Assembly: GCF_000981445.1 (NCBI RefSeq)
Contig: NW_012237284.1
Span: 1 to 38,715 of the forward strand
Reading direction: 5' to 3'
From: Babesia bigemina
Taxonomy: Eukaryota
Length of the DNA stretch: 38,715 nucleotides
Each line of letters starts with the position of its first letter. Positions within the stretch are counted from its first letter, which is position 1. The translations under genes and the position numbers were made by a program. Positions 5,301 through 30,904 of the stretch are shown piece after piece. Under the pieces are notes generated by a model. It was not told where the DNA came from. It was given only the letters and a program-made list of their open reading frames with translations, and did not search any database.

Positions 5301-7787
5301 ATCATTTCCGTCGACATAGATTATCTCCTCGTCACCACCAGACACATCGGTCCCCTCAACGTCCATATCCACCACACCCTTAATATCGACAATCATCTCG
5401 TCCTTATCAACCACTTCCTCCATAACGTCCTCTAATAGTCCCCTTTGCATAGCTTCCCTTAACCTATTTTCCTCTCGCTTCGCTTCCAAATCCCACAATT
5501 TTTTTTGCTCCTCTACTGCCTTTTGTTTTCGTTCTTTCTCACGTCGTTTGTAGGACTGATCCTCTATGGCGTCGCCGCCGAGAATAATATAATCTCCCTG
5601 CCCTCTATCCCTTCCCCTTAGTTCGTAGTAATCACGCTCATGAGCATTATGTTCACCGGTAGACTGAAGGGAGCGTCTGGAAGTGGAATGGCTGGAACGG
5701 CTTTTCGAAGTGAGGGAATCAATACGTGAATTTCGTTTTGAATGTATTTCTCGTAAATCTTTATACTCCGTTTCCAGCATTCCTTGTCTTTGAGCATCTA
5801 AAACTTTATCTTCATCTTGAAAGTTTGGTTTTTCAACACAGAATTTCATGCTGCCAAAGTTAAAAGAAGATTTACCCGGAGGACAGGCAGCAACGCTCGC
5901 CTTTGGTCCACTCCCCCCAGCTCCACCAGCGCCTGAACCTAAATCCGAGCCAGTGTATGCCGTAGTAGCATCGGTCGTAGGATCTTGCGATGTACTTTGA
6001 CCGCTTCCTTGAACAGGCGCAGAAGAACCCGTCTGGCCATCCTGCCCCTGACCACCACTGGAACCAGAGGCACCAGATGACCCAGAGTCCGCACTTGGAA
6101 CACTTGAAGGCTGACTTTGTACTGCCTTTGCAACTGGTGAACTAGAAGTATTTCCCACACTGTGACCATTTCCTTGGTTCTGTGCTCCCTCCACTTTCTT
6201 GCCCTGGTTCTGTGCTCCCTCCACTTTCTTGCCCTGGTTCTGTGCTCCCTCCGCTTTCTTGCCCTGGTTCTGCGCTCCCTCCGCTTTCTTGCCCTGGTTC
6301 TGCGCTCCCTCAGCTTTCTTGCCCTGGTTTGGAGTTGCGTCGCCTTTGGTGACCACAGGCTTCGCGGCCTCGGTTTTGGGCGCTTCGCTTTTGGTTTCAG
6401 GTAATTCCTCATCGGATTCTTCATTCATCAATTCTTCATCAGAATCAGGCTCAGAGTCAAGATAATACTCATCCTCATCCGCAGGCTCAGGCTCAGGCTC
6501 AATCTCAGGCCCAGGCCGAGGCTCTGGCGTAGGCTTAGGCTTCTTCTCAGGCTTCTCATCCTTGTGTCTACTCGCACACTGGTTGCCGTTCAAAATTCTC
6601 ACGAGTCCGTCCAAACCGTCATTCGTTTTCTTGAGCTCATGGATTGCACCATTCCAACTGTCAAACAAATCTTTATAGGGGGTAGTCTCCACTTTATAAT
6701 TGTTATGATATAATGTGAATCCGTAGCGTATGAAGTTATTTGTAAAATATGCCATAAAAGCTTCGGGATATCCCCCAGACAGGGTGTTACCTTTCCGTAT
6801 GTGTTTACCACTCAGCGGATATTTTTTCGTACTGTCAAAGGGTTCGATTGACTTCAATTGTTCCATCACATCACTTAAATGTGTTTTGAACCACTTGGCC
6901 ATTTTCTTGGCAATGTTTTCCGTGGAAAGATATTGAGGTTCGCGCGCATACCCGGTGAAAGAGAATCGGTTTCCGTTGAATATTTTTTCAAGGGACTTTT
7001 TTAGTTTGCTGCAATGTTGTTGTAAGTCTCGCCAAGCAATGCAATGATGCCTGGCTTGTAAATTATTTTTGAAATCGTCCTCATCCCTAACTTTTTCGAA
7101 AATCCCACAAAAGTCTTGCACCAACCGAAGAGCGTTCGCAACATTGGACATATCAGCGCCATGCTTACCAAACACCGAAGTGACGAATACATCGAGAAAT
7201 ACGTTGAATCCACGACCATGTTTTTCTGAAATATCTATAAGGTCAGGCATCATTTTACTACCAGGGGAATAACCACTCCTATGACCCATATTCAGCTCAC
7301 GTGGCGCAAATCCTCCAGGGATTACACCGTAACCATTCGTTTGTGTTGCAATTAGATATTTATCAATCTGACTGCCATAATATACTGATCGTGCGACCAA
7401 TCCAACCTGGTTTTCGGCCCATCCCCCACCACCAAGTGCTTTGAAATTAGCGTCAACTTTGTAGCGCAGGAAATATATAGCGGAAAGCAATCTGGGAATA
7501 CATGCTAACAGAGCGTAGAGTACATCCCTAGGGCTTTTATTACCAAGGTAATGACCGCGAGCATTTTTGCATAATTTCGTATGAAACTTGGATACTCCGC
7601 TAAGGAATATGGAAAGTGCTCTTTCAATTTCACTTTGAGTAAAACCTTTATATCTGTTTTTAAGCAGCCTTTTCAGTCGATTGGCAACGCTGCTTTGCAT
7701 ACCCGTCTTGTCATCTTTCAACCAATAAAGAAATTCCATACACTCCTTAAGGGTATTGAAAGCAGGAATCGTACCTTTCGCCGCCAT
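2328..7787 (-). CDS. Large Babesia VESA-related variant antigen ('ribosome-binding protein 1'-type), 1819 aa, C-terminal TM
   Basis: Uninterrupted ORF. N-terminal 'TLKECMEFLYWL'. C-terminal Cys-rich domain with 'APRTVREMLQWLAGL', 'SPLQAFLTD', 'PRTTGELVSFF', 'YLSWTVYL', then a TM and the tail 'DILHIRSHLIRTKASHLIDVKALL', typical of Babesia ves-like families. Motifs are shared with the other large ORFs here. Confidence 0.88.
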   Translation of the reverse strand: MAAKGTIPAFNTLKECMEFLYWLKDDKTGMQSSVANRLKRLLKNRYKGFTQSEIERALSIFLSGVSKFHTKLCKNARGHYLGNKSPRDVLYALLACIPRLLSAIYFLRYKVDANFKALGGGGWAENQVGLVARSVYYGSQIDKYLIATQTNGYGVIPGGFAPRELNMGHRSGYSPGSKMMPDLIDISEKHGRGFNVFLDVFVTSVFGKHGADMSNVANALRLVQDFCGIFEKVRDEDDFKNNLQARHHCIAWRDLQQHCSKLKKSLEKIFNGNRFSFTGYAREPQYLSTENIAKKMAKWFKTHLSDVMEQLKSIEPFDSTKKYPLSGKHIRKGNTLSGGYPEAFMAYFTNNFIRYGFTLYHNNYKVETTPYKDLFDSWNGAIHELKKTNDGLDGLVRILNGNQCASRHKDEKPEKKPKPTPEPRPGPEIEPEPEPADEDEYYLDSEPDSDEELMNEESDEELPETKSEAPKTEAAKPVVTKGDATPNQGKKAEGAQNQGKKAEGAQNQGKKAEGAQNQGKKVEGAQNQGKKVEGAQNQGNGHSVGNTSSSPVAKAVQSQPSSVPSADSGSSGASGSSGGQGQDGQTGSSAPVQGSGQSTSQDPTTDATTAYTGSDLGSGAGGAGGSGPKASVAACPPGKSSFNFGSMKFCVEKPNFQDEDKVLDAQRQGMLETEYKDLREIHSKRNSRIDSLTSKSRSSHSTSRRSLQSTGEHNAHERDYYELRGRDRGQGDYIILGGDAIEDQSYKRREKERKQKAVEEQKKLWDLEAKREENRLREAMQRGLLEDVMEEVVDKDEMIVDIKGVVDMDVEGTDVSGGDEEIIYVDGNDIAENRKTIAEVKPAIFNVDGHEAIISHGNTAVSSSDDYEVLGLDGAAINTYAMPNMEHVDEEIPLGFVGNAVRDINKPVLPNFKFGSKVDGHVYDDGSDGVFEKQVAAKAKWQEEQKIRFLKMMQEDIQDQLAKSNDHAMFTSGSVLPHSFPLDGIVVKSDADTNDSQPDDSEQKLFQKYMQGNTLHGSVIQNREYKPFLTREPFASHGSVINDTSRNNPAYEKMFADSKHELNKRFKDARKKQDNLEATVRAISQKTLYKDLFRGGDVHITHQLKPAYTDTVDTLDIYVPPHSRTISERPDPNIVQHSLNRTTPQMTIEIPDRMSSNLDDPSNSGFRPTHLAFDFQRDDPLFSRRLDPIVPGVLIENAQRGTPRKQDDPNYLDLQIQVPDRTLQDSSYDIDLGYDPPPPPNIKPIEPVYSATPAINLTFPPVVDPKLKPPEDFDKKTIKHPDITLCLAPWTTQTPTPGSTDIPETELFPSEAPRTVREMLQWLAGLRHPKHHSTLTECFNKAFSGLHHEPSHLALFINHTKVRPTDVFDILQLTAMFAGSVLTSIAPNWIASLSSRAVKPMSSTQSDEPDCCALLCQLRDYAYACHHQFQFLKAQCNRNSTYGGWQNCNYGSDITASNSPLQAFLTDGWDSTFETHLFDPCNLCLKSRVRMGFRDEDLPSSQQTGNTLSTILTPSCGGEDPLLTLCSYLNCLTRRTPRTTGELVSFFHNFGNEMHGYASKSLSPLGNSLRTPHLDCPDWDHLGRHDLQAVSGVRGTESLNSVSNHNHDNAHPRTLSTLVGCGSDPDSCHPRMSPITYRAYALYSQSFAHTYLSWTVYLPDRLWESLEKMYYDLKKHNCFDGKSLHSCPVALPLLYTHGFTPPEVGSQLPLTCQQIIAKLKEIVNGKPIASLMTAMDNFLYNIREPFIFTLVALWSTALLIFANTMLYRIDILHIRSHLIRTKASHLIDVKALLSDNKKMMSLYDANYFDDDPNELLNLK
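6171..6345 (-). repeat. 30-bp coding tandem repeat, about 5.5 copies, encoding NQGKK(A/V)EGAQ
   Basis: Plus-strand unit TG(T/C)GCTCCCTCC(A/G)CTTTCTTGCCCTGGTTC, in frame in the 1819-aa ORF. Confidence 0.95.
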
Positions 7788-7956: not shown

Positions 7957-8579
7957 ACCTCCAGGGTGACACCTCTTAATGCAGCACGGCAGACAACTAA
8001 GTGTGCTGAGTGAAAGGGTTATGAAGTAAGACGTAGAGTGACAACAATACGCATCATATTAAAACAATGACACACCTAAACCATCATCATAAATCCATGA
8101 ACCATCACAAGAATCCTATAGACACACCACTCACCAGAGGAGGGAATGCGACAAGCCGAGGCAGCCATGCTGGAGTGAGAGCGTGGAGCATGATTGGAGA
8201 GGTGCGTTGTCAAGACAGTGTACCATACTTGAATCGTTGGGTCTTCCGTTCCGGTGTCTGGCTCGTGCTATCTCGGCGCTTGGCGTGCGTTACTGTTCAA
8301 AAGCCCGCAGATTTTCTCAGACCCGGAACGCCGCCTTGCCTCTGCGCCTCTCACGCTACATTCGCGCCGCAATCGTGGATTCCACGCTTCGATGCCGCCA
8401 GTTACACCACATCGAACGCGAATCACGCCCTGGTTCGTCCCCAGCAATATGCATGCAAACGATGTCGTTTTCTATCGCACCAATCTACAACTCATAACGC
8501 ACCACGCATCCCAACGCACTGCCAACCAAAATCCAGGTAAACGATGAATCCAAGATTAAACCCCGTCCGTAGTGAAAAC

Positions 8580-11500
8580 ATAGTCAAAATTGCCTTCAAA
8601 AATGTTAGTAATTTGGTTAGTAAAACGCTGATCAACTGGTCAAATTGCAATACCATTTTTTGACGGTCCGTCAACGTTTCGTATACAGCAAAAATTATCT
8701 CAATAGAAATTTTTTAGTCCATTCCTAGACTTTACAATTTGCGTTTTTATTTTAATTTAAGGTGTCAGGCTAAGTGCGTAGTTTCGACTATTTTTTGTTT
8801 ATTTTTTTATTTGCACCTGTCCACATAGTTACCTAAATCTCAAAAGATGTTTTATAAATATATTAAGGGAGTTGGAATCTTCTGTGATTTTGGGGGAAAC
8901 TTTGAGAAACGTGTTTTCTCGGGTTTATCACAGAAAGGAAATTTTTCCGATGTCACTGGGGGGTGTATTGAAGGCCAAAAGTGCGGAATTAAAGCGGCAA
9001 CATCGCGAGGCGAAAGGCGGCCACACAGGCGCGCTGGATAGACGAACAAGGTACCAATGGAGAGCTCACAAGAAGTGCAGCTGAGCAGTCAAATCGATGA
9101 GGACGGAGACCTCATGGTTATTGACGTGGACGTCCCCGATGGGATGGACATCGATGCTCCGCTTGCCACCGTGGGGCGCCGAGAGTGTCGGCAACCCGAA
9201 AGGCGGCATGAATCCAGAAAACCGGTACAAAGCGGTGTTCAGGGCCCTAAAGGTAAACCCACAAATTCGAAGGGGGCCGGCCGTGGCGGCGAAAGCCGGC
9301 CAATCCCGCAGGCAAGCCGGAAACGACACCAGCCCGGAACCACTCCGGCTGTGAAGGGCGCTGGAAACAAAGCGCGGAACGGCGGTCCCCAGGGCCAAAA
9401 GGGTAACAACCGGAAGGCCAAAAAGACAGGAAACACGGCTCAAACGCCGCCTGTCGTGGTTTGCAACGCCGGGCCGAGTTCCTCGGAACGCGCACCCGTG
9501 TGTGTGCAGACACTGTCTACCCTGCAGCCACCGGCAGGGGAGGTTGTCGGAAACGGTGGCTGCCGCTCTCCGACCGTGTATTCCATATCGTCGGATGACT
9601 TTATGGACGTGGACGAAGAGGAACCTGAGCAAGTCGGGCCTGTGAGAGAATCAAACAACAGTATAGCACCGGGCACCGCCAGTGAGGTGGCGCTCACTGA
9701 GACGGCTGCGTTGCCGAGGGCACCCGAAGGGCACGCCCCGCAGGCTGAACGGGCCGGGAACACGCCACAAATGCCGCCGAACTACGCTAGGCTGAATGCC
9801 AAGTTACAGTTCCTGCACTGTGTCATGCGTCAGATCGATGGACCATGGTGTCATTGGGTACCGGACGTCTACAAGGCAGTAGTGACGAAGTATCAGAGGA
9901 TGCCACGAGGAGGATGGAAAGTCCTCGCGGAATATGCCAACGAGCATTTCGAATTCCACAAGACCCACAAGGAGGTGGAGCAGATGGCAAGACAGGTAGT
10001 CGCCAAAGCAGCGCGGAGCCAACCGACGGACGTTGGAGAAATAGCATCGCTGCACGACGTCGACTCATACAACGCCCTGCAGGAGGATTTCGACCGGATC
10101 ATGGCACAGAGGTTGAGGGAGCCTGGTGTGATTAGGACAGTAAAGAACAAAAGACACACCATGGACTCCCTCGACTTCACGGCGATAAGGTCGCTGGATC
10201 TAGTGGTCCACAACTACGTGAAGCACAACCCAGTCACTGACATGGGGATGCTAGCCGTCTTGTATCAGACGGCACAGGACTGCTACGACAAGTACAGCGC
10301 AAAACCATCGTCGTCCTCGGGAAAGAAGGAGGCAGCTGAGAGGAGGATCAAGGAGCTGGAGGAGATAGGAGCATTACTTCTGAAATACAAGCAGAAGGTC
10401 CCCCTGGAGAAGGAGGATAGGAAACGCGTTTATCGCCAAATGGACAAGTACAACATGATCGCGGACAAGCCGCAGGAACTGTCATACGTGATCAGCAGGA
10501 CTCAAGAGGAGCTCCAAAAGGAGCAGGACAAACTCAAGAACGCCAAGTTCAAGAAGGAGTTGTACAACGACAACCGCATGTTCGAGCTCTACACGGGACA
10601 CTTCTACAGGACACTGGAGAACAAGCAGGACGCGGACGAGTCGGCGATAAACGAGGGGATGATGATAGAGTACTGGGCGCAAATGTGGGTGAAGCCAAAC
10701 GCACCGCACAACGGTGAAGGATATCTGGTCGAAAGACCACCGGCAGAGAACAAGGCAGGCTTTCCCACATACGAGGAATTCGTCACGATCGTCAAGAAAT
10801 TGCGAGACTGGAAGTCGCCCGGTGCGGATGGGATCTACAACTACTACATTAAATGGCTCACGTCCCTTCACAGAGTCATTTACAGGCTAGTAGAGGAGGC
10901 ATGCCAGCAAGGCAAAGTGCAGGACGACTGGTTCTACTGTGGGATCACGTACCTACTACCGAAGAACAAGAAACCAAAGTCCGCCGCACAGTACAGGCCT
11001 ATCACATGCATGTCCAACCTATACAAGCTAACTACCCGCTGTGCAACGGAGACGCTTAAGCGAGAAGTCGATGGCAGGGGACTACGGTCCGAGAACCAGA
11101 TGGGCACGAGGAGCAACGTACAGGGTGCAAAGGAGCACGCGTTAGCGAACATCGCGCTCAACGAGAAGCACAAGGGGAAGTTACTTGCAACGTGGGTCGA
11201 CGTCATGAAGGCGTACGACTCAATCGACCACGCGTACCTGGCAAGGGTTATCGACAACCTTAACCTACCAGGGTGGTTATCAAACTTCATCAAGCAGACG
11301 ATCAAGAGGTGGAATATAGAGATACGGTGGAACAAGAACACAATCATGCACAAGAAAGTGGAGAGGGGCATTCTCCAAGGCGACAGCCTATCGCCCCTTC
11401 TCTTCGTGCTGTGCTTGGACCCGCTGAGCAGGCACCTGACTCGCATCTTCCCCAAGGTGGAGTTAAGCGTGACCGGCGGCAGGATATTCGCCACAAACCA

Positions 11501-13182
11501 CTTTCTCTATATTGACGACCTCAAGTTCTTCGCCCACGAGGAAAGTACGATGAGAGGAATGGGCCGAGAAGTGGAGAAGTTCTTCAACGACATAGGACTC
11601 AGGATCAACCGCGACAAGTCGGCAACCAACACGGAGGCGTGCGCCAGCATCGCCAAGCAGATGGAAGGCCCGGAAACGTACAAGTACTTGGGAGTCACAG
11701 AGACTTCAAACTCACTGACAAGCGACGGAATGTTCGACATAATACTACAGGAGATATGCAGGAGAACGGAGCTACTGGCTGCGTCAAAGCTGTCGGGGAA
11801 AAACCTCTCGATGGCCATCAACCAGTACGCCCTCAGCGTCATAAACTACTACATAGGCGTGATCCCCATGGACATCACGCACATCGACAGGATTGACTTG
11901 TAGACGCGCACAAGGCTCTCGGCAAAAGATGAACAAGTAACGTGGACGAACACACAACGGCTCTACCTCCCCCGGAAAGAGATGGGGAGAGGGCTCCACA
12001 GCATGGTATTCAGAGCGGAAGCCATGCTGCTACGACTGTGGTTGACGTTTTCAGCAGACGAGGTGACGTCAACCAGGAGGGCTGCGATCATGCAGCATTT
12101 TCGCGACACATACGCGCACATATCTCATATCAAGATGCACCTGGAAGGGAGATATGGAATGGAATTCGGAGTGGAGGACACGACGGACAAGAGCCTCAGG
12201 GACCTCAGGGTGGCCCAAAACAAATGGCTGTACAACAGAATGCACGTAAAATCAACTCATAAGGTTCTGTATGCCAAGCGTGAGGACCCCAAGCTGGACA
12301 TCGAGGCGTCGTCATTGTACCTGACGTGTGGAATACTCACCCCGGAAGAAGAAGCGAAGGTAGCAGAAGTCCAGGACAGGAATCTGCAATGGATGACTTC
12401 GTCCAACAAATGCTCAAGATGCAACAACGGCAAGAACGTGGACCACCTCGCGACGAAGTGCCCGAAACTACTACACCTTGAATATACGAAGAAGCACAAC
12501 GAGGTAGCAAAACGGGTCCACTCAGTACTCGGGAGGCAAATAGGACTACCCAAGGAGAAGATAGACGCCCACAAGATCGAGAGTGAAGTGCACGGAAAAT
12601 ACGGATGGATCGCGTACGACAAGACGGTCAAGACTCAGAAGACTAAGGAATACAACAGGCCAGACATCATCCTGGCGGATCGGCGGAGGAACACCATAAC
12701 CATCGTGGAGATAGGAATCACCAATCAAGACAACCTAGTGGATACGGAGAAGTTCAAGAAGCAGAAGTATGAAGACCTTATCGAGGACCTCAAGGCGCGA
12801 CAGTTTAACCAGCAAACCAAGATCAGGGTTATCCCCTACGTTATGACGTGGGAGGGAATAGTGACAAAGGAGCACAGCAAGTACAGACGGGACCTGGGCA
12901 TATCGGATCGCATGGAAGCCCACATACAAAGGGTAGTGATCCAAGAAACACATAAAATAGTGATGAGGGATATGAAGCCGAAAGAAGACTACGATTCCGT
13001 AGAAGACCCTCAAGCCCAAACTGTATGGATGCCCGCATGGATGGCACCAGTGACGTCCGGCAATGGACCGGCGTGGATCCCGCAACCGGTTTCAGCGTGA
13101 GGCGTTAGCCCCGCAAACACGAAAACCGGCCCAAGGCACGTAGCCACATAGCACACTACAAGATGAGATAACTTAAATTAAT
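8580..13182 (+). mobile_element. Non-LTR retrotransposon copy 1 (RLE-type, R4-like); 5' boundary uncertain
   Basis: Single long RT/endonuclease frame 9057-13100 plus an 82-nt 3' UTR ending ...AACTTAAATTAAT, identical to copy 2. Homology to copy 2 spans 9287-13182. The 5' limit is only guessed from the AT-rich stretch starting near 8580. Confidence 0.88.
9057..13100 (+). pseudogene. Retrotransposon ORF (RT + CCHC + PD-(D/E)xK endonuclease) interrupted by one in-frame TAG at 11901-11903
   Basis: ORFs 9057-11903 and 11982-13100 share a frame. RT motifs: KSPGADGI, YRPITC, DVMKAYDSIDH, GILQGDSLSPLLF, YIDD, YKYLG, then RLYLPRKEMGRGL. C-terminal motifs: CSRC..DHLATKC, KHNEV, RPDIIL..IVEIGIT..KY. 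Confidence 0.92.
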
Positions 13183-13207
13183 AGTGACTGCGTGACGCTA
13201 GAAGAGA

Positions 13208-13414
13208 TTATTGGAGTCTCGGCTTGGAATCACGAAATCCATCACGTATTTGGCGGAATATCTCTCCGAGGCTTACGTTATAAATTTGGCCCATGATGTA
13301 AAGTACCAAGACAAGGAGGGCCGAGAAACCAATGAAGCCGGCGAAAGCAATTCCTAAAAATTTTAAGGCGCAACCAGTTTTGTTGTTGCAAGTGCTACCA
13401 CAGAAGCATGCCAT
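13208..13414 (-). CDS. Small single-TM protein with a Cys-rich N-terminus (about 68 aa from the first ATG)
   Basis: MACFCGSTCNNKTGC, a hydrophobic segment (FLGIAFAGFIGFSALLVLVLYIM) and a basic tail. Same architecture as the ORFs at 14254 and 30905. Confidence 0.55.
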   Translation of the reverse strand: MACFCGSTCNNKTGCALKFLGIAFAGFIGFSALLVLVLYIMGQIYNVSLGEIFRQIRDGFRDSKPRLQ

Positions 13415-13930
13415 CTTCCCGAAACTCACAATACCACTAACCCTGCACAGCTATGAATCACACACCTCAATACTCTAACACCCTCAGCCAACTCGATGCA
13501 CCATGACCATACCCCCACCCCTACCATGCCATCCGCCTTGTGCTGGGGCAACCGTAAATCCGGATATCCCAACGCTGACATGACATGAATATCCAATCCA
13601 GCATGCACTAATAAGACATGTCTTCACCGTGATTTATCACTACAGCGACTAACAATGTATTGTCAACGAGAAGTGCCAGGTCTCTCTAACATCTGCCTTG
13701 TTCCATCCTGCTTATTCTGATATCTGACCAGCTTACCTAAGCCGCTTGCGTGACGTTTCCGATCAGTGCAATGCAGCCACTAAGCACGCCACCATACAGC
13801 ACCATGCCACTTGCTAACCTAACAAATGGCCCATCACGTCACACGGAGCACGACTCATCAGGTGACGGACTTTATTACAACCCGATAAGTTTTACTTTTC
13901 TCTTGATATGAGGTCACCCACCCCAACTAA

Positions 13931-14209
13931 TTAACCAGAGCGATGCCATGTTAGCAGATTTCCATTAACTAAATCTTGCCGGTTAGGTGAGGCTATACTG
14001 GAGTAGAAAGATAGGCGGTGCCTTAGGCGCAGGTTTTGCATCCATTGTAAAACTTTTCGTTGCAATCGCCACTCTCTGTATTTAAGAAGCATAAGCCACA
14101 AACCTTCATTCATCATGAAAATGATGACGGCGGCGATGGCGTGGATGTAAGGGGCGGGGATTGTGATCATCTCGCTGTTCATGTGATTGTTCATCAACGC
14201 AATCATCAC
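13931..14209 (-). CDS. Small hydrophobic ORF or second exon ('MIALM..' module), diverged copy
   Basis: MIALMNNHMNSEMITIPAP..AIAAVII aligns with ORF 30662-30859 and sits in the same position downstream of a Cys-rich ORF. It diverges after about 30 codons. Confidence 0.4.
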   Translation of the reverse strand: MMIALMNNHMNSEMITIPAPYIHAIAAVIIFMMNEGLWLMLLKYREWRLQRKVLQWMQNLRLRHRLSFYSSIASPNRQDLVNGNLLTWHRSG

Positions 14210-14253
14210 TCTGTCTAGACATTAGATATGAGTTGGCAGTTGGGTTATAGTAA

Positions 14254-14583
14254 TCAGCCGCGCAGTAGATACCGCACCCTGTGGAACGGCCGGATGCGGA
14301 AGTAGATCATGACACAGACGACGATGAGGAGAATTATAAAGCATGTGACAGCGACACCTACCGTAACAGGTAGTATGGCTCTTGTTTTACAACAAGGACA
14401 GTCACAATTTGCCCCATATTCATAGTCACATTTTGGACATTCATAACGATCGCAAGCGGTGAGACGCCCTATGTAATAATCGCACGCTTTGCACGCGCCA
14501 TAATTTCTACATCGTTTACAACACCATGGACAGCATATACATCTGCCATTACAGGGTGTGCCACACTTACACCCATCACTCAT
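14254..14583 (-). CDS. Small Cys-rich single-TM protein, 109 aa
   Basis: Dense CxC/CC/CxxC N-terminus, a TM, and the tail VMIYFRIRPFHRVRYLLRG, nearly identical to paralogue 30905-31306. Confidence 0.72.
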   Translation of the reverse strand: MSDGCKCGTPCNGRCICCPWCCKRCRNYGACKACDYYIGRLTACDRYECPKCDYEYGANCDCPCCKTRAILPVTVGVAVTCFIILLIVVCVMIYFRIRPFHRVRYLLRG

Positions 14584-15328
14584 TTTTTTTCTTACCTCTC
14601 CCTACCCATCAACCTACGAACCATGAATCACGTACCTCAGACCCGTACACTGAGCGTCTCCCATCTGCGCCCCAACAATCGGGTGATCGCCATCCGGCGC
14701 ATCGCCACTTACATCACTACTATGCAGCCATCACAACTAAAGTACTACCAACGTAGCGCATGTCGACGCTGTCCTGGCCGTGACATGCAGGTTAGCGGGT
14801 ACCAGTTCCTCGGCGAACTCCATCCACCACAGGCCGACGTTACCAATGCGTACGACTGCTGTTACATATGTGTTGTAATGAGTTCCTGAGTGAGATACAC
14901 GTCCTCATTAGTATGTCTCTTATGTACGCTGCTACCACCAATGCCACCTAACTACGCCGTCCATTGGCCATCACGTAGGAGAGTAGCTGTGGCATTTCCA
15001 GGTGACGTACATTGCCTACACGGCAACTAGTAACTCTACAACAACATAGTAACTCACCTGCTATGGCCATCGCCAGCTGCCTACGTTGGTGGCCAACAGC
15101 ACAGCTCCACCTATCACTTACAGAGTGGTACTATGCGAAGACATGTAAAGGGTTATGCAAAACTCAGATCACCACACTGTATCATCCATTAAGTTGGCAA
15201 CATGAACCAGGTTATGCCTGGCGGCAGTGACGCTTTTTTCACACCATGATGCCGCAGGTGCTGGAGTAACACAACTACTACTACAGCGCAACCTATTGCG
15301 ATGTAAAATGACTACATTAATGTGATAA

Positions 15329-18300
15329 CTATTGAACTGCAAGTTGACCAATAGCGTCCTCGTCGAAGTAGTCGACGTCTTAGAGTGATAGCATCTTCCC
15401 GCCTTTAGTGAGTAGCGCCTTGACGTCGATGAGATGGTAGGCCTTGGTGGTCAGGAGATGTGATCGGATGCAGAGGACGTCCGGGCGGTAGAGGAAAGTG
15501 TGGAGTAGGTACAGCGCCACGAGAGACCACAGTGCGATGGAGCAGTAGAAGAAAGGCATCCGTATGTGCCACATGAGTTTGACGATTTGCCGGAACAATT
15601 CAGTGAAGTGGCCAGAGTGCAGCGCCTTTCTGAGTTGTGCGTTGAGGTCTCCGCAGCGTATGCCAACGTTTTCAGTGACCAGGAGATCTGCGTTACTATA
15701 CGTGAATCCGTAACGTTAGAGGGTTGGCAGTGGCCCGGCGCACTGGACGATGGAAGGGCAGTGGCAGGTATCCTTCCCACCGTGGGTGCCGGGTTTACAG
15801 GGGCATGTGGCACACCCGGACGCCGTGCAGTCGATGTTATCCAGCGCGTGGAGTAAGTCACATAGCAACTCCCAGAATCGCCATGCCAGGTACATTATCC
15901 ACGTGATGTGTAGCCCGGCGTGCTTCTGCGGGTAGGTGTGATGGGCGTGGAGTCCTAGGGGTTGGAGGTAGGGAGCGCATCCACGGGGTGACTTGCAAGT
16001 GGAGTCGTGGAAGAGGGTGGACAACGCATTGTGGTTTTTGTGGCCATGGCCGGAGAGTGATGCGATGGCACTAGTGAGCTGGTGATTTTCATAACTGCCA
16101 TGGAGCAGTGTCCACAGTGGGAAGAGGCTGTCGATGCCGTCAGTGTTGAGGTGCGATATGAAATTGGAGGCATCGGTGTACGTGCCGCCACGGTGCTCAA
16201 CACGGTCATGAGAGTCCCACTTCCGAAGCAGCTGAGCATACAATGCAAACACGTCGGCGAGTGATGACGGTGCAGCGGGACACGACAAGAACAGAGTCCA
16301 ACAGAGCACGAACAGGCATGAATCGGAGTCACGGCACATATCGCCGAGGCGCTTGGCGAGATCTAACCCGGTGCCACTTATGGAGGCAGCAAAGCCAAGG
16401 TCCCAGAAGCCGAGCGGAGTGAGGCACTGCTGGCCGAGTTGGTTGGAGGTGCAGTTGGCACATTCGATGACCATGTCAGCAGCGGTAAGGGTATGCGGCA
16501 GAAGTCCGTGGCAGCAGTCACAGAGGAACGACTGGAGCGGCGAGGTGGGCGGGCAGCCGTGAATGGTGGTGGTGGAGGAAGTGGTAGTTGTAGTAGTTGC
16601 AGCAGTAGTAGTACTGATAGTACTAGAGTAAGTGCCGATTTGTTTACACTGCCAGTGGTGTGACTGCACCTGCCGGCCGTACGCGCACTCCCGCCACCCC
16701 TTGACCCGGGCGGTGCTGCGGCAGCACTGGGAGTACAGGAAGTAGAGCACTCTACTAAGACGGCATGCTATCTCACGTAGCATATCAAGCAGCGCATCTG
16801 GTTCATAGGGGTAGTGGAGCTTGGCACGGTTGTTGGAGGAGTCCGCCGAATACGGGTAGGCGGCGAAGTCGATGCCGTGGCCGTTGCCCTGGATGGCGGT
16901 GAGCAGTGCGGTGGAGTGTGAACATGTTGTTGCGATGGTATATGGTAGCTCATCAATGCACTTGGCCATGACAGAATCGTCCCTGTTGGGTGTGTCGCTG
17001 TCGTGGCATCGGCGGTCGAGCAGAGCCTTGCAGTGGCCTGGCAGCTTGTTCGCCACCTGTGTATACTGCAGCCCGGAGAGCCACGACAGCATGTCCCTGA
17101 CCGTGCAGGGGTATCGTGGCTCAGGGGGAGCAGGGATGTGGCAGACCTGGAAGTATTGACATAAGAGGTTGTGGAGCAGCGACATGATGGTGACCAAGTT
17201 GATTCCATTTTCCAATGGCTCACCGTCAATCATCATCTCGATAGCCACACCCTCAATTGGAGTTGCAAGTAACTCGTATATCCCACCGCCAGTAAACATG
17301 TTGTTCAACTCGCCGTCTTGCCCACTGTCGGAACTAGACACCCTGTACCCGCACCTGGTGAGGTAGTTGCCAAGTGGGTTATCCCTCTCGTCAGCAGTGA
17401 ACTTACTAATGTGAAGTGCTTTACACTCACCTTCACATTTCGTCGCCAACTTGGTAAGCGCTTGGTGCGTCATAGGTATAATGCTGAGGAACACCTTAGC
17501 GTACTTGTGGGCGTGTTCCTCCCTGCACCGCTGACCGGAGTAGGTGGAGATGTAAGTGTTGCCGAGCTCACCGGTGAATTTGGAGAGACCAATAGAGACA
17601 GTGTCGAGCAGCGGAGTGGACGGGTGCTTGAAGTAGAAGGGTGCCATATTACTCAGCGCCTTGCTCAGCCTCTCAACCAGCTCGGTGAGTCTGTCGGTAC
17701 CTCTATCATTGTCCCTTAGGTAGGCGAGCAGCGCAGTGAGCGCGTCATAAACATCATTGAGCTTGGGCGTGTAGGGCTCTTTGGTTGGTGGCAAAGAGGG
17801 ATTCTTCTCCTTGTTTTGCTCATCGTGCAGCCTGGTGATTTCCCCTGCGACATACTTCTCAATTTGCTCGAACACCTCCTGGAATGCGGATGATAATTCT
17901 GCGACGCTCTGTTCCTCACCTGTTAGATCGGAGCGCAGCGGTCGTTGCAAGTACTTCATGAACCCTTTATAGCCCACGTACCTATCCCTGTTTATCTCAT
18001 GTGGCAGCAGGTTTAAATCCTCGTTGACTTTCTTGGCAAACAATTCCAACGCCTCCCTCAGCGAGTCCACGTACAGCCCACGGGCTTCCTTGGTGAGGTC
18101 CTTGATGGCGTCGTCCACCTCACAGTCGACGTGCTTCAAAAGGGCATGGACGGTGTTCTTCTCTATCTCGTCGGCTTTATCAAGGAAGTCGTCACACAAC
18201 CTGATGGCTTCGGCAAGGTCGGTGAGTCGGAGGTTGGTGAGACCACCTTGTATGCCTTTGAGTTTCCCGTCAATATGCGGAATCTCAAGCTGGTTCAGAT

Positions 18301-19517
18301 TCCAGCCAGCATAGGCACCAGCTTTTTGGATGGCTAAGCTCATCTTACCTAAATTGTCAGTGATCCCTTTGCCCTGGTCGTTCTTGAGGGACTCCATTTC
18401 ACGTTTGATTTTCTTAAGGCCTTCATTGTCACTTCGACCAATGTGTTTTGTCATGAATTCCAGATTCTTGACTACGCCTCGATATTTGGGATCCTCGCTG
18501 TCCGTGCCCTGCAACTCGGTTCGGAGACTCTGAAGTTCGTCAGTTATCTCCTTCATACCTGAGCTTATTATTTCGGGTTGGTGGGATAACTGATTTTGTT
18601 GACTCTGAACATTGCGCTTAATATGGTCGAAGCCCTTGACATTTTTCCCATTCCATTGCTCACTGCCACCGAACTCCTTGTCCAGGAGATCAGTTAACAT
18701 AGTGCTAACTTCATCTTGTAATTCACCTTTAAGCTTCTTAAGATCCTTTTCAATTTCTTCCTTTGCTTGTCCGATTTCTTTGAGTCTATTAGTAAAAGCA
18801 TTTGCCTGCAGACTACTAATCTTTTTTTTGATTTCTTGAAGACTTCCATCGTCACTTTTAGCAAGACCAATACCAATCTTCCTTTGCAGCAGCTGTAAGT
18901 TGTGCACAATGTCATCTTCAGGAATGAGTTCATGACTCAATTTCTTTCTAACATTTCGGAGAACACTTTGGGTTTGTTGCAGTACACTCTCGGTTGCTTG
19001 TTCAATGTTTTCACTTGCCTCAGACAACTGCGTATTCTTCTCATGGAGTTCATTGTTGATTTTACTGAGACCATCTTTACTATTTTGCCACTCCTCACCA
19101 CCAAGTCCTTTCGTTAACAAGTCTCCCAACCTGTTTATCAGACTATTATTAGGACTTCCAGACTCGCTTTTTAACTCTTTTCTAAGCTCTTCAAGCACAG
19201 TGGTAATGAGGTGGACGCCAGAGCCGAGTAGTGTGGGCTGGCCGGTCAACCAATTCAAGTGAAGTTGAAGTTCCTTTTCAATTAACTCATGGCCTTTTTC
19301 GTTATAGTATTTCTGCCATTTACCATTGCCAAGACCGGTACCCCTCAAATCCTTGATTGTCTCAATGACTTCATTGTTCAACAGATGGTGAAGCACTGCA
19401 AGCTTACGTCTGATTACGCCGACGGCTAGGCCGATGTCCCTGGGTTTCTCACTAAAATGCTTTGCCTGTTGCTTGCTAATCTCCGTAAGTATGCTCATGA
19501 GATTATTTTGATATTTG
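15329..19517 (-). pseudogene. VESA-related large antigen pseudogene (coiled-coil N-region), 5' end replaced by retrotransposon copy 2, two in-frame TAA
   Basis: The frame is open from the element junction at 19517 to TAA 15716-15718. It continues in frame (RYGFTYSN...IALWSLVALYLL...IRSHLLTTKAYHLIDVKALL) to TAA 15380-15382, then DVDYFDED to the natural TAG at 15329-15331. Confidence 0.85.
16563..16628 (-). repeat. Thr/Ser-rich trinucleotide-like tract inside the antigen pseudogene
   Basis: Encodes SSTISTTTAATTTTTTSSTTT. Confidence 0.6.
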
Positions 19518-22500
19518 ATTAATTTAAGTTATCTCATCTTGTAGTGTGCTATGTGGCTACGTGCCTTGGGCCGGTTTTCGTGTTTGCGGGGCTAACGCCT
19601 CACGCTGATACTGGTTGCGGGTTCCACGTCGGTCCATTGCCGGACGTCACTGGTGCCATCCATGCGGGCATCCATACAGTTTGGGCTTGAGGGTCTTCTA
19701 CGGAATCGTAGTCTTCTTTCGGCTTCATATCCCTCATCACTATTTTATGTGTTTCTTGGATCACTACCCTTTGTATGTGGGCTTCCATGCGATCCGATAT
19801 GCCCAGGTCCCGTCTGTACTTGCTGTGCTCCTTTGTCACTATTCCCTCCCACGTCATAACGTAGGGGATAACCCTGATCTTGGTTTGCTGGTTAAACTGT
19901 CGCGCCTTGAGGTCCTCGATAAGGTCTTCATACTTCTGCTTCTTGAACTTCTCCGTATCCACTAGGTTGTCTTGATTGGTGATTCCTATCTCCACGATGG
20001 TTATGGTGTTCCTCCGCCGATCCGCCAGGATGATGTCTGGCCTGTTGTATTCCTTAGTCTTCTGAGTCTTGACCGTCTTGTCGTACGCGATCCATCCGTA
20101 TTTTCCGTGCACTTCACTCTCGATCTTGTGGGCGTCTATCTTCTCCTTGGGTAGTCCTATTTGCCTCCCGAGTACTGAGTGGACCCGTTTTGCTACCTCG
20201 TTGTGCTTCTTCGTATATTCAAGGTGTAGTAGTTTCGGGCACTTCGTCGCGAGGTGGTCCACGTTCTTGCCGTTGTTGCATCTTGAGCATTTGTTGGACG
20301 AAGTCATCCATTGCAGATTCCTGTCCTGGACTTCTGCTACCTTCGCTTCTTCTTCCGGGGTGAGTATTCCACACGTCAGGTACAATGACGACGCCTCGAT
20401 GTCCAGCTTGGGGTCCTCACGCTTGGCATACAGAACCTTATGAGTTGATTTTACGTGCATTCTGTTGTACAGCCATTTGTTTTGGGCCACCCTGAGGTCC
20501 CTGAGGCTCTTGTCCGTCGTGTCCTCCACTCCGAATTCCATTCCATATCTCCCTTCCAGGTGCATCTTGATATGAGATATGTGCGCGTATGTGTCGCGAA
20601 AATGCTGCATGATCGCAGCTCTCCTGGTTGACGCCACCTCGTCTGCTGAAAACGTCAACCACAGTCGTAGCAGCATGGCTTCCGCTCTGAATACCATGCT
20701 GTGGAGCCCTCTCCCCATCTCTTTCCGGGGGAGGTAGAGCCTCTGTGTGTTCGCCCACTTCTTGTGTCCGTGCTTCGCGTTAATTATTCTCCGTACTGCC
20801 AGGTCGATCTTGTCGAAATGCGTGATGTCCATGGGGATCACGCCGATGTAGTAGTTGATGACGCTGAGGGCGTACTGGTTGATGGCCATCGAGAGGTTTT
20901 TCCCCGACAGCTTTGACGCAGCCAGTAGCTCCGTTCTCCTGCATATCTCCTGTAGTATTATGTCGAACATTCCGTCGCTTGTAAGTGAGTTTGAAGTCTC
21001 TGTGACTCCCAAGTACTTGTACGTCTCCGGGCCTTCCATCTGCTTGGCGATGCTCACGCACGCCTCCGTGTTGGTTGCCGACTTGTCGCGGTTGATCCTG
21101 AGTCCTATGTCGTTGAAGAACTTCTCCACTTCTCGGCCCATTCCTCTCATCGTACTTTCCTCGTGGGCGAAGAACTTGAGGTCGTCAATATAGAGAAAGT
21201 GGTTTGTGGCGAAGACCCTGCCGCCAGGCACGCTTAGCTCCACCTTGGGGAAGATGCGAGTCAGGTGCCTGCTCAGCGGGTCCAAGCACAGCACGAAGAG
21301 AAGGGGCGATAGGCTGTCGCCTTGGAGAATGCCCCTCTCTACTTTCTTGTGCATGATTGTGTTCTTGTTCCACCGTATCTCTATATTCCACCTCTTGGTC
21401 GTCTGCTTGATGAAGTTTGATAACCACCCTGGTAGGTTAAGGTTGTCGATAACCCTCGCCAGGTACGCGTGGTCGATTGAGTCGTACGCCTTCATGACGT
21501 CGACCCACGTTGCAAGTAACTTCCCCTTGTGCTTCTCGTTGAGCGCGATGTTAGCTAACGCGTGCTCCTTTGCACCCTGTACGTTGCTCCTCGTGCCCAT
21601 CTGGTTCTCGGACCGTAGTCCCCTGCCATCGACTTCTCGCTTAAGCGTCTCCGTTGCACAACGGGTAGTTAGCTTGTATAGGTTGGACATGCACGTGATA
21701 GGCCTGTACTGTGCGGCGGACTTTGGTTTCTTGTTCTTCGGTAGTAGGTACGTGATCCCACAGTAGAACCAGTCGTCCTGCACTTTGCCTTGCTGGCATG
21801 CCTCCTCTACTAGCCTATAAATGACTCTGTGAAGGGACGTGAGCCATTTAATGTAGTAGTTGTAGATCCCATCCGCACCGGGCGACTTCCAGTCTCGCAA
21901 TTTCTTGACGATCGTGACGAATTCCTCGTATGTGGGAAAGCCTGCCATGTTCTCTGCCGGTGGTCTTTCGACCAGGTATCCTTCACCGTTGTGCGGTGCG
22001 TTTGGCTTCACCCACATTTGCGCCCAGTACTCTATCATCATCCCCTCGTTTATCGCCGACTCGTCCGCATTCTGCTGATTCTCCAGTGTCCTGTAGAAGT
22101 GTCCCGTGTAAAGCTCGAACATGCGGTTGTCGTTGTACAACTCCTTCTTGAACTTGGCGTTCTTGAGTTTGTCCTGCTCCTTTTGGAGCTCCTCTTGGGT
22201 CCTGCTGATCACGTATGACAGTTCCTGCGGCTTGTCCGCGATCATGTTGTACTTGTCCATTTGGCGATAAACGCGTTTCCTATCCTCCTTCTCCAGGGGA
22301 ACCTTCTGCTTGTATTTCAGAAGTAATGCTCCTATCTCCTCCAGCTCCTTGATCCTCCTCTCAGCTGCCTCCTTCTTTCCCGAGGACGACGATGGTTTCG
22401 CGCTGTACTTGTCGTAGCAGTCCTGTGCCGTCTGATACAAGATGGCTAGCATGCCCATGTCAGTGACTGGGTTGTGCTTCACGTAGTTGTGGACCACTAG

Positions 22501-23413
22501 ATCCAGCGACCTAATCGCCGAGAAGTCGAGGGAGTCCATGGTGTGTCTTTTGTTCTTTACTGTCCTAATAACACCAGGCTCCCTCAACCTCTGTGCCATG
22601 ATCCGGTCGAAATCCTCCTGCAGGGCGTTGTATGAGTCGACGTCGTGCAGCGATGCTATTTCTCCAACGTCCGTCGGTTGGCTCCGCGCTGCTTTGGCGA
22701 CTACCTGTCTTGCCATCTGCTCCACCTCCTTGTGGGTCTTGTGGAATTCGAAATGCTCGTTGGCATATTCCGCGAGGACCTTCCATCCTCCTCGTGGCAT
22801 CCTCTGATACTTCGTCACTACTGCCTTGTAGACGTCCGGTACCCAATGACACCATGGTCCATCGATCTGACGCATGACACAGTGCAGGAACTGTAGCTTG
22901 GCATTTAGCCTCGCGTAATGCGGCGGCATTCGTGGCGTGTTCCCGGCCCGTTCAGCCTGCGGGGCGTGCCCTTCGGGTGCCCTCGGCAACGCAGCCGTCT
23001 CAGTGAGCGCCACCTCACTGGCGGTGCCCGGTGCTATACTGTTGTTTGATTCTCTCACAGGCCCGACTTGCTCAGGTTCCTCTTCGTCCACATCCATAAA
23101 GTCATCGGACGATATGGAATACACGGTCGGAGAGCGGCTGCCACCGTTTCCGACAGCCTCCCCTGCCGGTGGCTGCAGGGTAGACAGTGTCTGCACACAC
23201 ACGGGTGCGCGTTCCGCGGAACTCGGCCCGGCGTTGCAGACTGCGACAGGCGGCGTTTGAGCCGTGTTTCCTGTTTTTTTGGCCTTCCGGGTGTTACCCT
23301 TTTGGCCCTGGGGACCGCCGTTCCGCGCTTTGTTTCCAGCGCCCTGTACAGCCGGAGTGGTTCCGGGATGGTGTCGTTTCCGGCTTGCCTGCAGACTTGG
23401 CCGGCTTTCGCCG
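19518..23413 (-). mobile_element. Non-LTR retrotransposon copy 2, 5'-truncated, inverted relative to copy 1
   Basis: The reverse complement matches 9287-13182. Homology ends sharply at 23413 (5' end, inside the ORF) and 19518 (3' end). No poly(A) tail or target-site duplication is visible. Confidence 0.95.
19600..23202 (-). CDS. Reverse transcriptase / restriction-like endonuclease of copy 2 (RT, CCHC and RLE intact; original start lost; first in-frame ATG at 23097, 1165 aa)
   Basis: Uninterrupted frame with all catalytic motifs (YIDD; RPD..E..K). The frame stays open up to the truncation at 23413. Confidence 0.9.
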   Translation of the reverse strand: MCVQTLSTLQPPAGEAVGNGGSRSPTVYSISSDDFMDVDEEEPEQVGPVRESNNSIAPGTASEVALTETAALPRAPEGHAPQAERAGNTPRMPPHYARLNAKLQFLHCVMRQIDGPWCHWVPDVYKAVVTKYQRMPRGGWKVLAEYANEHFEFHKTHKEVEQMARQVVAKAARSQPTDVGEIASLHDVDSYNALQEDFDRIMAQRLREPGVIRTVKNKRHTMDSLDFSAIRSLDLVVHNYVKHNPVTDMGMLAILYQTAQDCYDKYSAKPSSSSGKKEAAERRIKELEEIGALLLKYKQKVPLEKEDRKRVYRQMDKYNMIADKPQELSYVISRTQEELQKEQDKLKNAKFKKELYNDNRMFELYTGHFYRTLENQQNADESAINEGMMIEYWAQMWVKPNAPHNGEGYLVERPPAENMAGFPTYEEFVTIVKKLRDWKSPGADGIYNYYIKWLTSLHRVIYRLVEEACQQGKVQDDWFYCGITYLLPKNKKPKSAAQYRPITCMSNLYKLTTRCATETLKREVDGRGLRSENQMGTRSNVQGAKEHALANIALNEKHKGKLLATWVDVMKAYDSIDHAYLARVIDNLNLPGWLSNFIKQTTKRWNIEIRWNKNTIMHKKVERGILQGDSLSPLLFVLCLDPLSRHLTRIFPKVELSVPGGRVFATNHFLYIDDLKFFAHEESTMRGMGREVEKFFNDIGLRINRDKSATNTEACVSIAKQMEGPETYKYLGVTETSNSLTSDGMFDIILQEICRRTELLAASKLSGKNLSMAINQYALSVINYYIGVIPMDITHFDKIDLAVRRIINAKHGHKKWANTQRLYLPRKEMGRGLHSMVFRAEAMLLRLWLTFSADEVASTRRAAIMQHFRDTYAHISHIKMHLEGRYGMEFGVEDTTDKSLRDLRVAQNKWLYNRMHVKSTHKVLYAKREDPKLDIEASSLYLTCGILTPEEEAKVAEVQDRNLQWMTSSNKCSRCNNGKNVDHLATKCPKLLHLEYTKKHNEVAKRVHSVLGRQIGLPKEKIDAHKIESEVHGKYGWIAYDKTVKTQKTKEYNRPDIILADRRRNTITIVEIGITNQDNLVDTEKFKKQKYEDLIEDLKARQFNQQTKIRVIPYVMTWEGIVTKEHSKYRRDLGISDRMEAHIQRVVIQETHKIVMRDMKPKEDYDSVEDPQAQTVWMPAWMAPVTSGNGPTWNPQPVSA

Positions 23414-30431: not shown

Positions 30432-30510
30432 TGTCATCGCTGCCGTGACCAAGACATCGCTGCCGTGACCAAGACATCGCTGCCGTGACCATGTCATCGC
30501 TGCCGTGACC
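30432..30510. repeat. 20-bp tandem repeat, 4 copies (CATCGCTGCCGTGACC-ATGT/AAGA)
   Basis: Visible array followed by CTTAACTTGGTCAG, as at the window end. Confidence 0.92.
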
Positions 30511-30661
30511 CTTAACTTGGTCAGGTGGTTGGTCACCTCGCTGCTCATGTCATTGATCATCAACGCAATGATTACGCTGTCGATAACATTAGATGTCAGT
30601 TGCCAGTTGGGTGATCAGTGGGATTTGGATTAACAACGTTTGCGCTAACAAATTATGGACT

Positions 30662-30859: not shown

Positions 30860-30904
30860 TACTGTCTAGACATTATATGTCAGTCACCAGTCAGGTTATT
30901 GCGA

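What the first reader, a model, noticed from the sequence alone, without database searches (positions are those of the whole stretch)
8580..23413. Recently active RLE-type non-LTR retrotransposon family embedded among variant-antigen genes of a piroplasm
Seen: two copies of a single-ORF element with all RT motifs, a CCHC knuckle and a PD-(D/E)xK nuclease. They differ at fewer than about 20 residues outside one patch, and both are flanked by Babesia-type genes. Known: this architecture plus the RLYLPR..GRGL motif fits R4/Dong-like elements. Most Apicomplexa, piroplasms included, are described as lacking transposons, and the exceptions I know are mainly LTR/Gypsy elements. Inference: a young, probably horizontally acquired LINE that was mobile recently and is remodelling antigen loci.
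Basis: partly seen in the sequence, partly recalled or inferred. Interest (0 to 1): 0.92.

Follow-up and report, generated by a model that had tools for sequence, protein, structure and literature searches.

The report
Microsporidia-type jumping gene in Babesia
These are two copies of a copy-and-paste jumping gene in the cattle blood parasite Babesia bigemina, a kind already noted in print; its protein groups with those of microsporidia (parasitic relatives of fungi), so it likely entered Babesia's ancestors by an ancient horizontal transfer and was likely still jumping recently.

Summary
The element is real and host-integrated: a 4.3-kb single-ORF retrotransposon (RT, CCHC, restriction-like endonuclease) of Babesia bigemina. 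Copy 1 (8867-13181) is full length, but it is a mosaic with an in-frame stop. Copy 2 (23413-19519) is 5'-truncated with an open frame, and abuts a headless ves-like gene.

LINE-like elements were reported in B. bigemina, B. ovata, B. divergens and Theileria equi in 2022 (PMC9141347). The family is not young either: Babesia copies form one clade whose divergence tracks a host gene.

Activity is likely recent. There are at least 8 near-identical full ORF records, dN/dS is 0.15, flanks differ in other samples, and one sample gives a likely 11-bp target-site duplication.

Not found in ten literature searches: the piroplasm elements nest among microsporidian Dong/R4-like elements (support 100/99; the alternative is rejected, AU p=0.006). 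This points to an ancient microsporidia-to-piroplasm transfer; one versus two events is unresolved.

Antigen-locus remodelling is plausible but untested. No listed contig bridged this window's junctions.

The parts
8867..13181 (+). Copy 1, full-length element (4315 nt); mosaic of subfamily A and B sequence; ORF interrupted by one in-frame stop
   Evidence: 5' end from loose ends of X1 (8867) and X2 (8864); 3' end shared with copy 2, X3 and X4 at 13181; mosaic
8867..9056 (+). 5' UTR, 190 nt; no significant fold or Rfam match
   Evidence: (z -0.69)
9057..13100 (+). Single ORF of 1347 codons, TAG at 11901-11903
   Evidence: same length as intact B. bigemina records P0125-P0127 and P0005
9855..9998 (+). 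Likely Myb/SANT-like helical domain (W...RMPRGGW...F), shared with T. equi and microsporidian relatives; approximate limits
   Evidence: alignment; Atlas lead Myb_Rap1 at 0.79, a lead only
10974..11699 (+). Reverse transcriptase domain of copy 1 (YIDD aspartates at 11514 and 11517)
   Evidence: Pfam RVT_1
11880..11960 (+). Divergent 27-codon patch with the stop; 33 of 81 nt differ from copy 2, no length change; not seen in contigs of X1-X4
12411..12461 (+). CCHC zinc knuckle of copy 1
12660..12770 (+). Core of the restriction-like endonuclease of copy 1 (PD 12660-12665, E 12708, K 12756)
   Evidence: predicted sheet
13101..13181 (+). 3' UTR, 81 nt, ending in an A/T-rich TTAAATTAA; no poly(A)
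19519..23413 (-). Copy 2, 5'-truncated (subfamily B); frame open from the truncation to the stop at 19600; RT 21726-21001, knuckle 20289-20239, nuclease core 20040-19940
15356..19518 (-). ves-like gene missing its 5' part; coding similarity begins right at the 3' end of copy 2
   Evidence: a relative has over 1000 more residues upstream and similarity starts at 19516; no ves-like match beyond the 5' end of copy 2
2328..7787 (-). ves-like host gene upstream of copy 1, divergently oriented
24664..26193 (+). Tpr-related membrane protein gene (host; used as divergence comparator)

Best explanation
This is a Babesia bigemina family of single-ORF, restriction-endonuclease (RLE) non-LTR retrotransposons, likely of the Dong/R4 group, that likely entered an ancestor of Babesia from microsporidia long ago and was likely still transposing recently. 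Shown: a 4.3-kb unit with a 190-nt 5' UTR, one 1347-codon ORF (RT, CCHC, RLE) and a short A/T-rich 3' end; a 5'-truncated copy; many near-identical intact records; purifying selection between subfamilies; nesting among microsporidian elements. Inferred from R2-type biochemistry: the protein binds its own RNA, nicks DNA with the RLE and copies the RNA from its 3' end by target-primed reverse transcription, leaving 5'-truncated copies and, in at least one case, a duplication of about 11 bp. Insertion is not confined to one fixed site. Copies likely persist in ves arrays because these tolerate disruption, and likely serve there as homology for gene conversion and rearrangement, which would explain the mosaic copy 1 and the headless ves-like gene. 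Neither copy in this window is likely autonomous.
For: Host: 98-100% identity to B. bigemina proteins, some on 2.8 and 3.5 Mb contigs; relatives on Mb-scale contigs of B. ovata, B. caballi, B. divergens and T. equi. Fold: model with pLDDT 91.5; the best 7 PDB matches are all R2 proteins. Activity: 8 GenBank accessions carry 4 distinct full 1347-aa ORFs that differ by 1-4 residues; dN/dS 0.15 over 2592 nt, Fisher p 8e-12; other 3' flanks in X3 and X4 and other 5' flanks in X1 and X2; an 11-mer ends the X1 5' flank and follows the X3 3' tail, both from sample S1, and a match this long arose in 2 of 198,371 random flank pairs. Origin: piroplasm rows lie in a 100/99 clade with Vairimorpha, Hamiltosporidium and Pancytospora elements, with Enteropsectra and Dictyocoela elements outside; placing them outside is rejected, p-AU 0.0057; a shared N-terminal motif, not seen in 5 of 5 outgroup rows printed. 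Age: Babesia rows form one clade, 100/100; 78% identity to B. ovata for both the element and the neighbouring host gene.
Against: No listed contig bridges any junction of the two window copies. Neither window copy shows a clear duplication: 3 bp for copy 2, which 35% of random pairs reach, and nothing clear for copy 1. The 11-bp duplication joins flanks from two runs, so the pairing is inferred, and the same 11-mer occurs 3 times in a ves-like repeat in this window. Near-identity could be inflated by gene conversion, by unplaced duplicate contigs or by the Phrap/iCORN assembly (PMC4066756). The Babesia stem is long (0.41-0.97 changes per column). The AU alternative was named after a first tree had been seen. 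No verified R4 or Dong reference was in the trees.
Confidence: 0.7

Rival explanations
1. Same element, different donor or direction: an unsampled host (an arthropod, or another protist behind the unnamed environmental hits) gave the lineage to both microsporidia and piroplasms, or a piroplasm-side lineage seeded some microsporidia.
For: 73 of 120 listed hits are unnamed, and octopus-, mite- and MAG-labelled rows fall inside the clade; an unnamed row is the weakly supported sister of the Babesia clade (89/76); microsporidian elements do not follow a single species tree.
Against: 26 of the 38 organism-named non-piroplasm hits are microsporidia, and named microsporidia lie both basal to and beside the piroplasm rows; Dong-R4 LINEs are abundant in microsporidian genomes (PMC13174016; PMC7313128 supplement).
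Confidence: 0.15
2. The copies are near-identical because ves loci are duplicated and converted as blocks, or because the assembly homogenised them; the family no longer transposes.
For: Copy 1 is a mosaic whose residues 969-1337 match copy 2 at all but 1 position; ves1 genes move between loci by conversion (PMC4066756, passages); no RNA holder was confirmed.
Against: Identity stops at the element ends with unrelated flanks; purifying selection between subfamilies; a likely target duplication at a site absent from this window; T. equi independently holds 5 full-length ORFs at 98.2-99.5% identity.
Confidence: 0.12
3. No horizontal transfer: an ancient eukaryotic RLE lineage inherited vertically by alveolates and microsporidia and lost elsewhere.
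For: Non-LTR elements are usually inherited vertically and RLE lineages can be very old (Utopia, PMC4640811); PMC9141347 reports unclassified or R2-like LINEs in Eimeria, gregarines and Cystoisospora that were not available here.
Against: 49% RT identity to Vairimorpha apis, as high as to T. equi (48%); nesting inside the microsporidian radiation with the outside position rejected; no other apicomplexan among the organism names of the 120 of 500 and 120 of 219 hits listed.
Confidence: 0.08
4. A young invasion specific to B. bigemina.
For: Very low divergence among B. bigemina copies.
Against: Relatives in B. ovata (78%), B. caballi (59% RT) and B. divergens (57% RT) form one clade with a long stem; no non-piroplasm hit exceeds 57% identity even over partial matches.
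Confidence: 0.03
5. Contamination or chimeric assembly with microsporidian DNA.
For: Closest outside relatives are microsporidian; this window's junctions were not bridged.
Against: Present in five independently assembled piroplasm species on Mb-scale contigs and in runs of several studies; the Babesia rows form their own clade.
Confidence: 0.02

Closest known systems
LINE-like elements of B. bigemina, B. ovata, B. divergens and T. equi (Rodriguez and Makalowski 2022, PMC9141347); reverse-transcriptase gene cluster 03 of B. caballi (PMC10463595)
   Same: Almost surely the same family: same species, RT-bearing models Bdiv_22 and Bova_19, 133,787 nt in B. bigemina. Sequence identity with their models was not tested.
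   Different: Those papers give partial models classed as Unknown, LINE-like or R2. In the parts I read there are no element ends, duplication, selection test or RT tree, and a word search of the main text of PMC9141347 finds 0 occurrences of Dong or microsporidia.
Microsporidian Dong-R4 LINEs (Vairimorpha, Hamiltosporidium, Pancytospora, Nucleospora, Astathelohania, Enteropsectra, Dictyocoela; class label from PMC13174016 and the PMC7313128 supplement)
   Same: Same single-ORF layout, 33-49% identity over RT and downstream domains, shared N-terminal motif, one supported clade.
   Different: Host in another eukaryotic supergroup; longer low-complexity N-terminus (1347 against about 1140 aa); GC3 0.69. 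That these microsporidian proteins are the ones labelled Dong-R4 in the papers is inferred.
R4/Dong clade of animals (Dong of Bombyx, R4 of nematodes; PMC7998251)
   Same: RT plus RLE, no N-terminal zinc fingers, likely a divergent Myb/SANT domain, A/T-rich TAA-like 3' end.
   Different: Dong inserts in (TAA)n and R4 in rDNA; the flanks seen here are neither and differ from each other.
R2 retrotransposon proteins (PDB 9nl3, 8gh6, 9nl2, 9dou)
   Same: Best structural matches, TM-score 0.58-0.62 by query length; RT, thumb, CCHC and RLE align in order.
   Different: About 15% identity, no N-terminal zinc fingers, no 28S rDNA target, no ribozyme match in Rfam.

Membership tests
RLE-type (R2 group) non-LTR retrotransposon | Single ORF with non-LTR RT | tested here: met
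RLE-type (R2 group) non-LTR retrotransposon | C-terminal CCHC knuckle followed by a PD...D/E...K endonuclease | tested here: met
RLE-type (R2 group) non-LTR retrotransposon | No APE domain, RNase H, integrase or long terminal repeats | tested here: met
   Pfam finds RVT_1 only; no terminal direct repeats
RLE-type (R2 group) non-LTR retrotransposon | TPRT footprints: shared 3' end, variable 5' truncation, target duplication | tested here: met
   3' end at 13181 in both copies, X3 and X4; copy 2 truncated; one inferred 11-bp duplication. The window copies themselves show no clear duplication.
RLE-type (R2 group) non-LTR retrotransposon | Nicking and reverse-transcription activity | not testable with these tools
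   needs a biochemical assay
R4/Dong clade | RT groups with verified R4 and Dong elements | not tested
   no named R4 or Dong reference came back; the support is indirect, through papers that label microsporidian LINEs Dong-R4
R4/Dong clade | Divergent N-terminal Myb/SANT domain without zinc fingers (PMC7998251) | tested here: inconclusive
   conserved W...GW...F helical motif; Atlas Myb_Rap1 at 0.79, under the 0.9 line; zero-score alignment to the R2 N-terminal region; no N-terminal Cys/His finger in the sequence
R4/Dong clade | Insertion into rDNA or microsatellites such as (TAA)n | tested here: not met
   the 4 flanks of the window copies and the loose-end flanks printed are unrelated, none is a microsatellite array, and Rfam finds no rRNA at 8400-24700; only short TAA-like tails
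R2 clade proper | 28S rDNA target and N-terminal zinc fingers | tested here: not met
LINE-like family of PMC9141347 | Sequence match to models Bdiv_22 and Bova_19 | not testable with these tools
   the model sequences were not in the supplement parts read

The most novel reading that the evidence does not exclude
A microsporidian Dong/R4-like retrotransposon crossed eukaryotic supergroups into piroplasms, perhaps twice (Babesia and T. equi) and plausibly in a shared tick host. It is still active in B. bigemina and T. equi, breaks and reshuffles ves antigen genes, and supplied the reverse transcriptase behind the proposed retrogene origin of B. bovis ves1-alpha before B. bovis lost it.
Probability: 0.3. 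Interest if true: 0.8.

Novelty: new member of a known kind. Interest (0 to 1): 0.55.

Why it matters
It answers a question left open in PMC9141347 (ancestral presence or invasion) with a candidate donor, and would be a transfer of a LINE between two groups of intracellular parasites in different supergroups. It gives exact ends for a likely active mobile element in a phylum with few transposons, so insertion polymorphism can be typed directly. It offers a source of reverse transcriptase for the long-proposed retro-origin of ves1-alpha (PMC4066756). It also shows that some Babesia gene models are element-ves fusions. The mere presence of LINEs in Babesia is not news, and that caps the score.

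Tried and rejected
No whole genome was held, so copy number, the genome-wide target consensus and ves enrichment were not computed.

No RNA holder was listed. X5 is only a guessed RNA run and was not used as evidence of expression.

Summed contig depth rises from about 5-7 to 101-113 towards the 3' end in X2 and X4. This fits many truncated copies, but the tool states it is no copy number, so it was not counted.

A joint 8193-14179 in X4 is not taken as an empty site: its ends lie 670 and 1000 nt from the element ends, and 14179 lies in a host repeat.

A single-sequence fold failed (pLDDT 36.5); the alignment-based fold worked.

The UTRs fold no better than shuffles. Rfam gave one sub-threshold hit and no tRNA was found.

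The ten outgroup-like clusters looked up gave only one organism name, a beetle, so no verified R4 or Dong reference was obtained.

The 40-row careful tree did not finish; its quick tree was used as a check only.

In the proteomics table of PMC4066756, the fused model BBBOND_0308820 has 9 peptides and 3 other element models searched have none. The peptides may come from the ves part, so this is not evidence for the element protein. A mass check was not run, as the script machine was lost.

The second structural alignment (VIA) was not obtained.

The start at 8580 was rejected: 8580-8866 is A/T-rich host DNA.
Full report
OBSERVATION. The window holds two inverted copies of one element sharing 3895 nt at 97.6% identity. 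Both carry Pfam RVT_1, YIDD, a CX2CX7HX4C knuckle and a PD...E...K nuclease core. The three RT aspartates, the knuckle H and last C, and the nuclease P, D and K are invariant in 105 of 105 aligned relatives. A model built on that alignment has pLDDT 91.5, and its 7 best PDB matches are R2 retrotransposon proteins, ahead of LINE-1.

BOUNDARIES. Contigs of two other runs follow copy 1 up to 8867 (X1) and 8864 (X2) and then continue in unrelated DNA, so the 5' end is there, not at 8580. Copy 2 and contigs of X3 and X4 leave at 13181. The unit is 4315 nt: a 190-nt 5' UTR, a 1347-codon ORF and an 81-nt 3' UTR ending in TTAAATTAA without poly(A). Copy 1 has a TAG at 11901 in a 27-codon patch. Copy 2 lacks the first 420 nt but is open to its stop. 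The copies differ at 37 residues, 23 of them outside the patch.

COPY 1 IS A MOSAIC. Residues 1-941 are identical to the intact type A record P0125. Residues 969-1337 match copy 2 at all but 1 position and differ from A at 10. The last 10 residues are A again. Contigs of X1, X2, X3 and X4 that reach the patch carry the standard sequence. Of the 14 patch changes, 3 match the B. ovata relative, a weak hint of a donor from an older subfamily. Gene conversion and a local assembly mis-join (capillary 8x, Phrap, iCORN; PMC4066756, passages) are both open.

HOST. The ORF is 98-100% identical to B. bigemina proteins, and the window's own products sit in the same clusters as records on 2.8 and 3.5 Mb contigs. 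Relatives lie on Mb-scale contigs of B. ovata, B. caballi, B. divergens and T. equi. The neighbour at 24664-26193 is a Babesia Tpr-related gene. The gene at 32582-38098 matches VESA1_N-bearing clusters at 0.94, and the genes beside the element resemble it (E 2e-83 and 9e-27). Ten listed runs from 5 named studies hold part of the stretch; X1 differs from the window by 61 letters over the element. Contamination is rejected for the family. No listed contig bridged the junctions of these two copies.

ACTIVITY. Eight GenBank accessions carry 4 distinct full-length ORFs that differ by 1-4 residues; some may be duplicate unplaced contigs. Between the A-type half of copy 1 and copy 2 there are 36 synonymous and 20 non-synonymous changes, dN/dS 0.15, p 8e-12, so both lineages descended through functional copies. 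In sample S1 the 5' flank seen in X1 ends with an 11-mer that reappears after a 16-nt A/T-rich tail in the 3' flank seen in X3. Random flank pairs reached 11 letters in 2 of 198,371 draws. I read this as a target-site duplication. The pairing across two runs is inferred, and the 11-mer also occurs in a ves-like repeat here. The window copies show no clear duplication, as expected if they were rearranged. T. equi holds 5 full-length ORFs at 98.2-99.5% identity, so it was likely active there too.

AGE. The Babesia rows form one clade (100/100, 27 rows). Identity is 78% to B. ovata over 656 residues, and 59% to B. caballi and 57% to B. divergens over the RT region. The neighbouring host gene gives 78% to B. 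ovata and 50% to B. caballi; it is one fast-evolving comparator only. B. ovata also holds a second, more distant lineage (about 48-50%). The family is therefore old in Babesia.

ORIGIN. Of the 120 listed hits (500 passed), 9 are piroplasm, 26 named microsporidia, 4 octopus, 3 mite, 1 psyllid, 4 bacterial-MAG labels and 73 without organism; none is named as another apicomplexan. The 120 of 219 short hits show the same pattern. Trees on 121 rows (FastTree), 40 rows (quick), 23 rows (careful) and 27 rows (careful, RT only) all place Babesia and T. equi elements in a clade with Vairimorpha, Hamiltosporidium and Pancytospora elements (100/99 in both careful trees), with Enteropsectra and Dictyocoela elements outside. 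The rows for the smaller trees were picked by hand from the larger set. Forcing the piroplasm rows to the outgroup side is rejected (p-AU 0.0057; hypothesis named). A single piroplasm clade is not in the best tree but is not rejected (p-AU 0.26), so one or two transfers remain open. An N-terminal W...RMPRGGW...F motif is shared by piroplasm, Enteropsectra, octopus-labelled and unnamed ingroup rows, and is not seen in the 5 outgroup stretches printed. Limits: the outgroup is arthropod-labelled or unnamed, the Babesia stem is long, and the animal and MAG labels may hide microsporidian DNA (untested). That ticks carry microsporidia is recalled, not from a call.

ANTIGEN LOCI. Coding similarity of the ves-like gene at 15356-19518 begins at the 3' end of copy 2, a relative has over 1000 more residues upstream, and no ves-like match lies beyond the other end of copy 2. 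The gene's head is missing rather than displaced. Two further B. bigemina gene models and one B. caballi model fuse the element to ves-like sequence. This fits insertion followed by recombination, but ves loci are rearrangement-prone regions of weak selection anyway (PMC4066756, passages), and enrichment was not tested.

MECHANISM. Shown: anatomy, truncation, selection, several different flanks. Inferred from R2 structures and general knowledge: cis-binding of the RNA, RLE nicking, reverse transcription primed at the nick from the 3' UTR, and staggered second-strand cleavage giving a short duplication. Odds: real RLE element 0.97; recent transposition 0.85; horizontal origin 0.88; microsporidian donor 0.7; active role in ves remodelling 0.35.

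WHAT IS KNOWN. PMC9141347 (read: parts 1-2 of 5 of the text, discussion, keyword passages, supplement parts 1-2 of 5 and one search; its Tables S5 and S6 were not in the held archive and may bear on classification) reports LINE-like TEs in these species and leaves ancestry versus invasion open. PMC10463595 (passages) notes an RT gene cluster in B. caballi. PMC13174016 (passages) and PMC7313128 (passages, supplement search) label microsporidian LINEs Dong-R4. PMC7998251 and PMC4640811 (passages) define R4/Dong and the RLE clades. PMC4066756 (passages, section 22 part 1, supplement search with file 1 unsearched) describes ves families and the proposed reverse-transcription origin of ves1-alpha. 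PMC4202319, PMC5081931, PMC5660447, PMC4053351 and PMC2474625 (passages) added nothing on this family. Ten searches found no paper linking piroplasm LINEs to microsporidia; subscription journals and Repbase were not searchable. The scan's notes held nothing on this family.

VERDICT. It works like an R2-group element and is a member of the RLE group. R4/Dong membership is likely but not established, since no reference was in the tree and the target-specificity feature is not met. Its presence is known; its anatomy, likely recent activity and likely microsporidian origin appear undescribed. Interest 0.55.

Noticed in passing
window 1-2171: Degenerate 12/24-nt tandem array (about 182 units of 12) at the contig end, likely a subtelomeric satellite.
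   Followed up: no
window 29592-30393 and 38045-38582; 30435-30510 and 38597-38702: A 22-nt G-rich tandem array followed by a 20-nt array lies upstream of two ves-like genes, a possible conserved ves upstream module.
   Followed up: no
window 27167-29368 (-): ves-like pseudogene with one in-frame stop, 44% identical to the gene at 32582-38098.
   Followed up: partly
window 14112-14330, 30530-30581 and 30771-30981: Dispersed repeat of about 200 nt at 82% identity, with high contig depth in X2 and X4; perhaps a small exon or a ves-associated repeat.
   Followed up: no
P0134, P0132, P0012: Public gene models that splice the element ORF onto ves-like exons; likely annotation artefacts, though P0134 has peptides in a proteomics table.
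   Followed up: partly
P0058, P0061, P0071, P0103, P0064, P0098, P0110, P0043, P0049, P0073, P0087: Octopus-, mite- and bacterial-MAG-labelled proteins inside the microsporidian clade: likely microsporidian contamination of those assemblies, or further transfers.
   Followed up: no
P0015 against P0358: B. ovata holds two distinct lineages of the element (about 49% and 78% identity to B. bigemina), so the family split within Babesia.
   Followed up: partly
window 12844-12877: A 34-nt match with long unrelated flanks recurs in X2, X4 and X9; probably another organism's DNA or a short fossil of the element.
   Followed up: no
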